DNA of 64,000 nt. Source: Moniliella sp. 'wahieum' (taxonomy: Eukaryota). Below, piece by piece: positions 1 through 1,203 of the stretch. Made by a program: the position numbers and the translations under genes. Below the pieces are notes generated by a model. That model did no database searches, had not been told where the DNA came from, and saw only the letters and a list, made by a program, of their open reading frames with translations. The stretch covers positions 1-64,000 of the forward strand of contig RSEE01000030.1 of NCBI GenBank assembly GCA_003971905.1, written 5' to 3'. Position 1 is the first letter of the stretch. Each line of letters begins with the position of its first letter.

Positions 1-11
1 CCTAACCCTAA
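1..11. repeat. Telomeric repeat (CCCTAA)n remnant, probable chromosome end
   Basis: Window begins CCTAACCCTAA, about 1.8 copies of the canonical TTAGGG repeat with the C-strand on +, as expected at a left end. Only 11 nt are visible. Confidence 0.6.
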
Positions 12-1088
12 AGAGGGACAACGGTGGGACGAAGCTCTTCTTTCCCTGCCCGCCCGCAGTGGCGGGCTTGGCTTCTTCTCCCACCTCGACGTTGCTCCCA
101 CGCGCGGGCGGCCTCATGCGAGGAGGCGGATGTGGTGGGTGGAAAAGGTGATTGCTGGCTGCCGACCGGAGAGAGAGAGAGAGAGAGACGCGCCAGCCGC
201 CACGCGACAGTCGCAGCGGGAACGGACGACCGCCATGTTTGCCGACCAACAGGCGAAGCTACTGACCGAGCTGCCGCCCGAGTTGGGCCACCGGCTGCTA
301 GAGAACGCCGAAGCGCTCAACCGGACGTGGATGTCGGTGGTGCCCTCGACTCCAGCTTTAACGCTTCCTGACCACGAGGTCATGGCTGGACTGCACCTCC
401 GCACCCTCTGCCGGCACGCCGCCGTCTGCCGGAACTGCAACGGACCCTGCCCAGATGTGGGGCACCTGCAGTCCTGCAACCGGTGGCGCTCGATTGGCAA
501 CTACCGCCATGAGATGCTCCGACGCTGCATCGTCAACCTGGCCCGGCACATTCCGGCCACCGAGGTGGAGACCGAGCCCTTCACCCAGCCGCAGCGCCCC
601 GGGCGCTACGACCGCACCGCCAACCGCACCGACATCAAGCTGACAGGAACCGGTGCCTCCAAGGGCACCTCGACATGCTACGACCTGACGTTTGGTCTTT
701 CGGGAACAAGACGCGCGACGCCGACATGCGCCGCGTCCGCCAGCAACTCGCCGCCACCACGCCGGCGCCCGAGCTGCGCAGGAAGGAGATGGATGTGTTT
801 GTCGAGACCGCCGCCAAGGACAAGCACCGCAAGTACGACGCGATTACTACAGGTGCTTTTGTGCCCTTGGTCTTTACCGCAGGCGGCTACGCCCACGGCG
901 AGGCCAAGGCTGCTTTGGCGCACTGGAAGGGGGAGGCGAACGCCGGTGCCTACCGCACGTTCACCGCCCTCTTTTCGTCCTGGCTCTTGCGTTGTGCGGT
1001 ACAAGGCATGCGAGTCGCCCCTTCCCACCGCGCCACCCCCACGGATGGCGGGGAGGGGGCGATACTCGTAGAGCCCCGCGCGGCGTAA
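12..1088 (+). mobile_element. 5'-truncated CRE-clade (Cnl1/MoTeR-like) non-LTR retrotransposon: post-RT region, zinc knuckle, restriction-like endonuclease
   Basis: Frame 1 gives LLSLPARSGGLGF (LPxxxGGLG motif after RT). Then, across frameshifts: HARAASCEEADVV, CRNCNGPCPDVGHLQSC (CCHC-type), RHEML, ETEP, RTDI, YDLT, KHRKY, FVPLVFTAGG. This is the RH/E/xD/D/KxxKY order of RLE endonucleases. Stop TAA at 1086-1088. Confidence 0.85.
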
Positions 1089-1139
1089 GCCCAGATGGCG
1101 TACACCCCATCCTCGGTACTACTCCTGTCAGAGCGTTTT

Positions 1140-1203
1140 AGGCGCCAGAAAATGCACCCCCGGGATAACTGGCTTGTGGCAGCCAAGCGTTCATAGCGAC
1201 GTT

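What the first reader, a model, noticed from the sequence alone, without database searches (positions are those of the whole stretch)
1..1170. Telomere + truncated CRE/RLE retrotransposon + 28S: a retroelement capping, or targeting, the rDNA array
Seen: CCTAACCCTAA abuts a 5'-truncated RLE element. About 50 nt after its stop codon the sequence becomes mid-28S rRNA on the same strand, with no telomere tract or poly(A) at that junction. Established: CRE-clade RLE elements are usually site-specific; the fungal ones (MoTeR, Cnl1) sit in telomeres or subtelomeres, while 28S-specific R elements are mainly known from animals. Inference: either a fungal RLE element inserts in 28S and this copy broke and was telomere-healed, or the element was added to a broken rDNA end as a chromosome cap. 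Either would link retrotransposition, rDNA and end maintenance. The junction (1089-1160) looks smeared, so misassembly is a real alternative.
Basis: partly seen in the sequence, partly recalled or inferred. Interest (0 to 1): 0.8.

Follow-up and report, generated by a model that had tools for sequence, protein, structure and literature searches.

The report
Fungal retrotransposon targeting 28S rRNA genes
The chromosome end is a broken, telomere-healed copy of a fungal jumping gene that lands at one exact spot in the ribosomal RNA gene and sits between two copies of a 225-base piece of that gene, although its relatives target telomeres.

Summary
Window 13-~1164 is the 3' quarter of a 4.0-kb single-ORF RT plus restriction-like-endonuclease retrotransposon. 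In this assembly 8 of 13 element 3' ends join 28S at one site, window ~1162-1167. Full-length copies (C33/C2, C158) sit inside 28S between two copies of a 225-bp 28S segment, longer than the 126-bp stagger reported for rotifer R9. The 'smeared' junction is the element's own 3' UTR, ending in a target-like tail that the scan noted earlier on another piece. Telomere repeats cap this element at three different truncation points, so the window end is a break healed de novo, not a dedicated cap. A decayed sister family shows the same architecture with a 70-bp 28S piece at another site. By RT tree both families nest among fungal elements whose relatives carry telomere repeats (14 of 80 metagenome loci; 0 of 80 touch 28S). 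Best reading: a telomere-type fungal CRE-like lineage switched to rDNA, in a genome with rDNA at many chromosome ends. Nine literature searches listed no fungal example. No raw reads were available, the copies are not all independent, and how the duplication forms is inferred.

The parts
1..12 (+). Telomere repeat (C-rich strand, CCTAACCCTAA) plus one A that matches neither the repeat phase nor the element; de novo healing point
   Evidence: same junction at the end of C24
13..1088 (+). 3' part of the element's single ORF (end of RT thumb, linker, CCHC finger, restriction-like endonuclease); element positions 2901 onward of about 4046
   Evidence: the frameshift near 688 is a 1-nt deletion private to this copy among 8 compared
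427..684 (+). CCHC finger and RLE catalytic motif (C-x2-C-x8-H-x3-C-x9-RHE-x20-E-x16-RTD-x16-D)
   Evidence: pattern for MoTeR1/SLACS/CRE from PMC12857005
1089..1161 (+). 3' UTR of the element, no poly(A)
   Evidence: carried by 5 dispersed copies outside rDNA
1140..1161 (+). Target-like tail: 16 of 22 nt identical to the 28S just upstream of the insertion site
   Evidence: 9-nt exact core reached in 24 of 20000 shuffles
1162..1386 (+). Right copy of the 225-bp 28S segment that flanks both ends of full-length elements (peptidyl-transferase-centre GGGATAAC to just past the sarcin-ricin loop; landmark names recalled). The 3' junction lies within 1162-1167; diagnostic base at 1344
1387..1706 (+). 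Remainder of the 28S 3' end
   Evidence: RF02543 to model end
2254..2372 (+). 5S rRNA gene in the spacer
6857..11341 (+). Next rDNA unit (18S, 5.8S, 28S) whose 28S stops about 70 nt past the R2 site, followed by decayed spacer and 5S remains; inner edge of the terminal rDNA block

Best explanation
A fungal non-LTR retrotransposon (family A, about 4.0 kb: two N-terminal CCHC knuckles, RT, CCHC finger, RLE) inserts in sense orientation at one site in 28S rDNA, about 532 bp downstream of the R2 site. SHOWN: fixed 3' junction; fixed 5' junction 225 bp further downstream in the gene, so the 28S segment between them flanks both ends; head-to-tail tandem copies separated by that segment; telomere repeats on three differently truncated copies. 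INFERRED from R2 biology: the endonuclease nicks the bottom strand at GGG(ATA)AC and primes reverse transcription there (TPRT), and the RNA comes from the rRNA co-transcript, since only about 65 nt separate the 5' junction from the first ATG. For the duplication I favour (about 0.5) inheritance through the RNA: the template keeps the left 28S copy as its leader and the cDNA anneals to the target, as proposed for earwig R2. A true 225-bp staggered cut as in R9 gets about 0.3; homologous integration of an element-plus-one-repeat circle gets about 0.2. Because rDNA lies at chromosome ends here, a break in the element, or an insertion whose 5' end fails to join, loses only distal rDNA and is healed by telomerase. 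That produces the window's structure.
For: Full element inside 28S in C33/C2. Duplication 225/224 bp. All 4 element 5' ends found have this junction. 8 of 13 element 3' ends are at the 28S site; the 5 dispersed ones stop at window 1164-1167. C158 reads telomere, truncated A, 225 bp, A, 225 bp, A, 28S. Telomere caps at element positions 2901, 1325 and 1493 and one directly in ITS2 (C35). Base 1344 is C in 4 of 4 copies next to an element 5' end and A in 8 of 8 uninserted or footprint genes. Copies differ from the C33 copy by 0-6 substitutions. The sister family B has a 70-bp 28S piece before its knuckle-coding start (18 of 23 loci) and after its RLE end (13 of 18 loci, 11 contigs). A and B form a clade (1.0) inside a 0.998 clade that holds all four named fungal proteins in the tree and all 14 telomere-repeat loci.
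Against: No raw reads were seen. C33 and C2 are 99.9% identical over 9.6 kb and may be one molecule, and C30 and C24 share one healed end, so there are about four independent loci (C30/C24, C33/C2, C158, C69). Near-identity could reflect recombination among ends rather than recent jumping. 5 of 13 3' ends are outside rDNA, so specificity is not absolute. Base 1344 is also C in 3 of 6 right-hand copies (window, C24, last C158 copy), which needs later exchange between repeats. No ribozyme was found at the 5' end (the home-made descriptor had no positive control). No copy has an unbroken ORF in this indel-rich assembly. The A+B branch is long and the tree lacks MoTeR1, Cnl1, SLACS and R2 themselves.
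Confidence: 0.85

Rival explanations
1. One ancestral insertion into 28S, not an ongoing target preference: the element landed once, acquired the duplication by repair, and was then spread among chromosome ends and into tandem arrays by homologous recombination between the 225-bp repeats or by break-induced replication.
For: rDNA-associated copies are nearly identical; subtelomeric blocks are widely shared between contigs; only four 5' ends exist, all the same; 5 dispersed 3' ends show that the element can insert elsewhere.
Against: The sister family independently sits in 28S with the same repeat-element-repeat architecture at another site. The tail resembles this very target and travels with dispersed copies. 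Two contigs have a telomere-like tract joined to 28S within 5 nt of the same site (C129, C112). The site lies in a highly conserved part of 28S.
Confidence: 0.09
2. Terminal addition: the element is reverse-transcribed onto broken chromosome ends (HeT-A-like capping), here a break in 28S, and the telomere is added afterwards.
For: Orientation is 5' toward the end in all terminal copies. C222 is telomere, truncated element, then a non-rDNA dispersed repeat. The C158 tandem array could grow distally.
Against: C33/C2 have 4.8 kb of intact 18S-28S upstream of a full element. Random breaks would not give one 3' junction. Of the 19 telomere loci inspected none carries family A next to the telomere.
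Confidence: 0.04
3. Assembly artefact: a chimeric join between an element read and an rDNA read, propagated by the assembler.
For: The assembly is indel-rich (135 indel events among copies); C33 and C2 share near-identical starts; no reads were available.
Against: The same junction is found with different upstream truncations and different private errors in C30, C24, C158 (three times), C69 and C33; there is a matching fixed 5' junction; uninserted 28S is assembled separately (C193); the decayed family B shows the same design.
Confidence: 0.02

Closest known systems
MoTeR1 (Magnaporthe), FoTeR (Fusarium oxysporum), Cnl1 (Cryptococcus): fungal CRE-related RLE elements
   Same: Single ORF with RT and C-terminal RLE matching the published motif; 5' end toward the chromosome end (PMC12857005 passages); truncated copies healed by de novo telomeres (PMC7367193 passages); tandem arrays at ends; nearest RT relatives carry CCCTAA repeats.
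   Different: The target is 28S rDNA, not telomere repeats, and there is no telomere tract at the 3' junction. It has two N-terminal CCHC knuckles, whereas FoTeRs and 4 of 6 full-length relatives checked have C2H2-type fingers. It has a 225-bp flanking duplication.
R9 of the rotifer Adineta vaga
   Same: RLE element at a non-canonical 28S site with an exceptionally long duplication (126-bp stagger; PMC6895275 passage).
   Different: R9 is a derivative of animal R2 (PMC5035012 passage); this element groups with fungal telomere-type elements. The duplication is 225 bp (70 bp in the sister family). I did not read the R9 paper and did not compare its exact site.
R2 of animals, especially earwig R2
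   Same: Sense-strand insertion in 28S with little room for its own promoter. Earwig R2 carries 22 bp of downstream 28S, with substitutions, at every 5' junction, proposed to be propagated through the co-transcript (PMC3774820 sections 10 and 17 part 1).
   Different: The site is about 532 bp downstream of the R2 site; knuckles instead of zinc finger plus Myb; duplication ten times longer; no HDV-like ribozyme detected; fungal host.

Membership tests
Fungal CRE-related RLE elements (MoTeR/FoTeR/Cnl1 group) | RT followed by CCHC finger and RLE with the MoTeR/SLACS/CRE motif | tested here: met
   RVT_1 at E 1.2e-5, below Pfam's cut-off, on a frameshifted piece; REL motif against the pattern in PMC12857005, with RHE for RHD/N, RTD for RAD/KPD and a 16-residue last spacer; 29% identity to a Filobasidium protein over the RLE, E 2e-26
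Fungal CRE-related RLE elements (MoTeR/FoTeR/Cnl1 group) | RT groups with MoTeR1/Cnl1/SLACS | tested here: inconclusive
   Groups (0.998) with Filobasidium, Saitozyma, Aureobasidium and Synchytrium proteins and with telomere-repeat loci; the named reference elements were not in the tree
Fungal CRE-related RLE elements (MoTeR/FoTeR/Cnl1 group) | Inserted in telomere repeats, with telomere motifs at the 3' junction | tested here: not met
   0 of 13 3' ends abut telomere repeats; 8 abut 28S
Fungal CRE-related RLE elements (MoTeR/FoTeR/Cnl1 group) | N-terminal C2H2 zinc fingers | tested here: not met
   Two C-x2-C-x4-H-x4-C knuckles instead
Fungal CRE-related RLE elements (MoTeR/FoTeR/Cnl1 group) | 5' end toward the chromosome terminus | tested here: met
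   C30, C24, C158, C222, C69, C33, C2
R2 / R9 (animal 28S elements) | Sequence-specific insertion in 28S, sense orientation | tested here: met
R2 / R9 (animal 28S elements) | Canonical R2 site | tested here: not met
   The R2 site (position recalled) is intact in C33; the junction is about 532 bp downstream
R2 / R9 (animal 28S elements) | RT in the R2 clade; N-terminal zinc finger plus Myb | tested here: not met
   Nearest relatives are fungal; knuckles at the N-terminus. Solved R2 proteins are the best PDB hits but only at E 2e-16; no R2 row was in the tree
R2 / R9 (animal 28S elements) | HDV-like 5' ribozyme | tested here: inconclusive
   No Rfam match to E 10 in L031 4770-5050; no hit with an unvalidated descriptor
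R2 / R9 (animal 28S elements) | TPRT from a bottom-strand nick by the encoded endonuclease | not testable with these tools
   Needs biochemistry; short 3'-anchored dispersed copies fit TPRT

The most novel reading that the evidence does not exclude
A telomere-targeting fungal retrotransposon lineage swapped its N-terminal binding domain and moved into 28S rDNA, using at least two sites in turn (about +60 and +532 from the R2 site). It uses a long piece of the rRNA gene itself (70, then 225 bases) as its 5' leader. Each insertion is therefore bracketed by repeats that allow exact excision, tandem growth and DNA-level re-entry, and its cuts and breaks, healed by telomerase, reset the rDNA-bearing chromosome ends.
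Probability: 0.45. Interest if true: 0.85.

Novelty: new variant of a known kind. Interest (0 to 1): 0.74.

Why it matters
In the reviews whose passages I read, rDNA-specific non-LTR elements are described from animals, and the fungal RLE elements are telomeric. A fungal element at a new, highly conserved 28S site would be an independent origin of rDNA targeting and a natural telomere-to-rDNA target switch, with a candidate cause in the N-terminal domain swap. How non-LTR elements join their 5' end is an open question. A 225-bp duplication carrying a marker base makes 'far second cut' against 'rRNA leader on the template' directly testable. R2 proteins are being developed for rDNA safe-harbour insertion, so a compact RLE protein with another conserved 28S site is of practical interest.

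Tried and rejected
Pfam found nothing for the window's two ORF pieces or for the RLE and knuckle pieces of C33. A homologue search with the RLE piece against longer proteins found none. The first metagenome scan with the single protein found none; the alignment-based scan did. No sequencing run was listed for the element, so no reads were laid; this is no evidence either way. No rDNA was found beside metagenome relatives: 0 of 80 by BLAST against this genome's rDNA unit, apart from one 51-nt 5S-like match in L168, and 0 of 20 by Rfam; many of these contigs are short and end before the junctions. Ribozyme searches were blank. The first multiple alignment of element copies was misaligned and was discarded; pairwise alignments replaced it. 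Rejected: that bases 1-11 are element coding sequence (the frame is open there, but longer copies differ); that the element's RNA carries the 225-bp piece at its 3' end (5 of 5 dispersed copies stop at 1164-1167); that 1140-1161 is host 28S (wild-type genes differ). The empty site of the C222 insertion could not be read. A look-up of earlier findings by sequence gave nothing.

Full report
Setting. The window is the start of contig C30 of a 69.5-Mb, 223-contig assembly. The host is inferred to be a fungus from the eukaryotic rRNA genes with 5S in the spacer, the TTAGGG telomeres and the fungal affinity of the RT. The assembly is indel-rich: eight copies of the element differ by 135 indel events, 107 of them beside base runs, but by only 0-6 substitutions from the C33 copy. 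rDNA lies near the ends of many contigs. For twelve contigs over 190 kb whose end position I know (C30, C33, C2, C24, C35, C10, C53, C41, C89, C49, C14, C112), a 28S match lies within 25 kb of an end. An intact tandem array is assembled separately as C193 (period about 10.1 kb). I use one C193 unit as reference (RD coordinates, 18S start = 1).

The observation. Bases 1-11 are telomere repeat, and longer copies of the element have other sequence there. The element runs from base 13. Its CCHC finger and RLE motif are at 427-684 and fit the MoTeR/SLACS/CRE pattern given in PMC12857005 (passages) with small departures. The frameshift near 688 is private to this copy. The stop ends at 1088 and true 28S begins at 1162. 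The region called smeared is the 3' UTR. Its last 22 nt are 16/22 identical to the 28S upstream of the site and are carried by dispersed copies. This agrees with earlier finding e1-7727798.

The full element. In C33 and C2 an element of about 4.05 kb lies inside a 28S gene with 18S, ITS and upstream 28S intact. It encodes two CCHC knuckles, RT and RLE; the first ATG is about 65 nt after the 5' junction. The 28S segment RD4965-5189 is present on both sides: 225 bp left, 224 bp right, and 1162-1386 in the window. It runs from the GGGATAAC of the peptidyl-transferase centre to just past the sarcin-ricin loop, +532 to +757 from the R2 site (the landmark names and the R1 and R2 site positions are recalled). 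All 4 element 5' ends in the assembly have this junction. Of 14 matches to the 3' end, 8 continue into 28S, 5 are dispersed and stop at window 1164-1167, and 1 is a footprint. Of 22 places covering this 28S segment (read), 8 follow an element 3' end, 2 are left repeats only, 6 are wild type, 2 are footprints, 2 are joined to a telomere-like tract and 2 are cut by contig ends. C158 begins with telomere, truncated element, repeat, element, repeat, element, 28S. Independence is limited: C33 and C2 are 99.9% identical over 9.6 kb; C30 and C24 share the healed end but are 98.3% identical over 11.7 kb and then diverge.

The telomere. Telomere repeats cap family A at three positions: 2901 (C30, C24), 1325 (C158) and 1493 (C222). 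C35 is capped directly in ITS2. The C158 and C222 junctions share two bases with the repeat; the window junction shares none and has one extra base. In Magnaporthe, rDNA ends and MoTeRs are truncated and healed in this way, 19 of 24 events using 1-4 nt seeds (PMC7367193 passages). So the telomere-element join is ordinary healing. Whether the truncation happened during insertion or later cannot be told; no 5'-truncated copy joined to upstream 28S was seen. In C129 and C112 a degenerate telomere-like tract joins 28S at RD4969-4970, within 5 nt of the element's 3' junction. This fits a cut at the target healed without insertion (inference; the two may be one event).

How the duplication may form. 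Base 1344 is C in 4 of 4 repeats that precede an element and A in 8 of 8 uninserted or footprint genes. It is A in 3 right-hand repeats (C33, C2, C69), C in 3 others (window, C24, last C158 copy), and A in C112 and C129. A pure staggered cut gives identical repeats at insertion, so the C33/C2 pair (left C, right A) leans toward the left repeat coming from the element. That is the proposal for earwig R2, whose 5' junctions all carry 22 bp of downstream 28S with three substitutions (PMC3774820, sections 10 and 17 part 1 of 2). Integration of an element-plus-repeat circle by recombination gives the same pattern, and a single mutation followed by exchange between repeats can too, so this is modest evidence. 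R9 has a 126-bp stagger (PMC6895275 passage; I saw only the title of the R9 paper). C219 and C53 have otherwise uninserted 28S that carries the element's tail variant after the shared 9-nt core. These may be excision products or very short insertions; the variant weakens pairing with the partner strand from -11.9 to -4.6 kcal/mol.

A sister family. Decayed copies at 65-80% nucleotide identity (family B) crowd the subtelomeres. A 70-bp 28S piece, RD4492-4562, precedes a knuckle-coding start in 18 of 23 loci examined. A more decayed copy of the same piece follows the RLE end in 13 of 18 loci, on 11 contigs, scoring above the best of 100 shuffles (one only marginally). Four dispersed copies at 72-78% identity lack it and one locus gave no row. 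These blocks are segmentally duplicated, so the counts are not independent events. They show the same element-repeat-element design at a second 28S site, about +60 from R2 and close to the R1 site. This bears on earlier findings e1-7648891 and e1-7648826.

Relatives. An alignment-based metagenome scan found 338 relatives and kept the best 80. None matches 18S or 28S; 14 carry (CCCTAA)2 on the sense strand, against 1 for the reverse and 0 for four control repeats. In a FastTree RT tree of 126 rows, A and B form a clade (1.0) on a long branch inside a clade (0.998) that holds the Filobasidium, Saitozyma, Aureobasidium and Synchytrium proteins and all 14 telomere-repeat loci. The tree used a reference-anchored alignment and was rooted on two Gordionus proteins; rows with too few aligned residues were dropped, among them two B copies and three named fungal proteins. 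MoTeR1, Cnl1, SLACS and R2 were not in it. Four of six full-length relatives checked have C2H2-like N-terminal fingers and none has knuckles. The N-terminal domain has been proposed to set R9's different site (PMC12203849 passages).

What is in print. Nine searches listed no paper whose title or abstract opening reports a fungal rDNA-specific non-LTR element. In passages of PMC5035012, PMC4640811, PMC3636483 and PMC13580325 the rDNA elements named are animal (R2, R4, R5, R8, R9, planarian LIN families). Passages of PMC12810828 and PMC12857005 describe Cnl1 and FoTeR as subtelomeric or telomeric. The library lacks most subscription papers and I could not search Repbase. I read no supplements; the inventory of site-specific elements by Fell et al. 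2025, mentioned, could bear on novelty.

Verdict. Real feature. It works like an R2/R9-type rDNA element and descends from the fungal telomere-type lineage, but fails a defining test of each family, so it is a new variant of a known kind. Confidence in 28S targeting with a healed break is 0.85; the route to the duplication is open. Interest 0.74.

Noticed in passing
window 11341-11955; also L032, L041 and many matches: The innermost 28S stops at RD4503 and is followed by decayed 28S-end, spacer and 5S remains. About 20 contigs match to the same break point, which lies inside the 70-bp piece used by family B.
   Followed up: partly
L108 1288-1323 (C219); L109 (C53 end): Uninserted 28S genes carrying the element's tail variant in the helix next to the peptidyl-transferase centre; predicted pairing is weaker.
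   Followed up: partly
L122, L131, L135, L136, L137, L139, L142, L144, L147, L151 (first 200 bases); L106 1-609; L116: A shared telomere-adjacent element, expanded into a 40-bp tandem array in C129 and C49, followed by a degenerate telomere tract; 10 of 19 telomere loci inspected begin with it.
   Followed up: partly
L044 2555-3000 (C222): A telomere-capped family A copy whose 3' flank is another dispersed repeat with 25 matches at 86-100%: off-target insertion or terminal addition.
   Followed up: partly
L042, L047, L111 (C69, C14, C12): An inverted 1.6-kb internal fragment of family A (element 1630-3230, 95-96%) lies inside a family B copy in a shared subtelomeric block.
   Followed up: no
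L309 1-30 (C128 end): A telomere junction with the same extra A after CCCTAA as in the window, here just upstream of a family B 28S piece; it may reflect how this telomerase starts.
   Followed up: no
L133 (C35 end): Telomere added directly in ITS2, leaving a 28S gene without 18S or promoter.
   Followed up: no
window 2856-3688 and 5809-6241: 181-bp subrepeats and TGGT-rich repeats in the intergenic spacer; spacers of different ends are only 84-93% alike while the genes are 98-99% alike.
   Followed up: no
L168 166-216: One metagenome relative has a 51-nt 5S-like match 1.7 kb upstream of its RT match; possibly a 5S-associated element.
   Followed up: no
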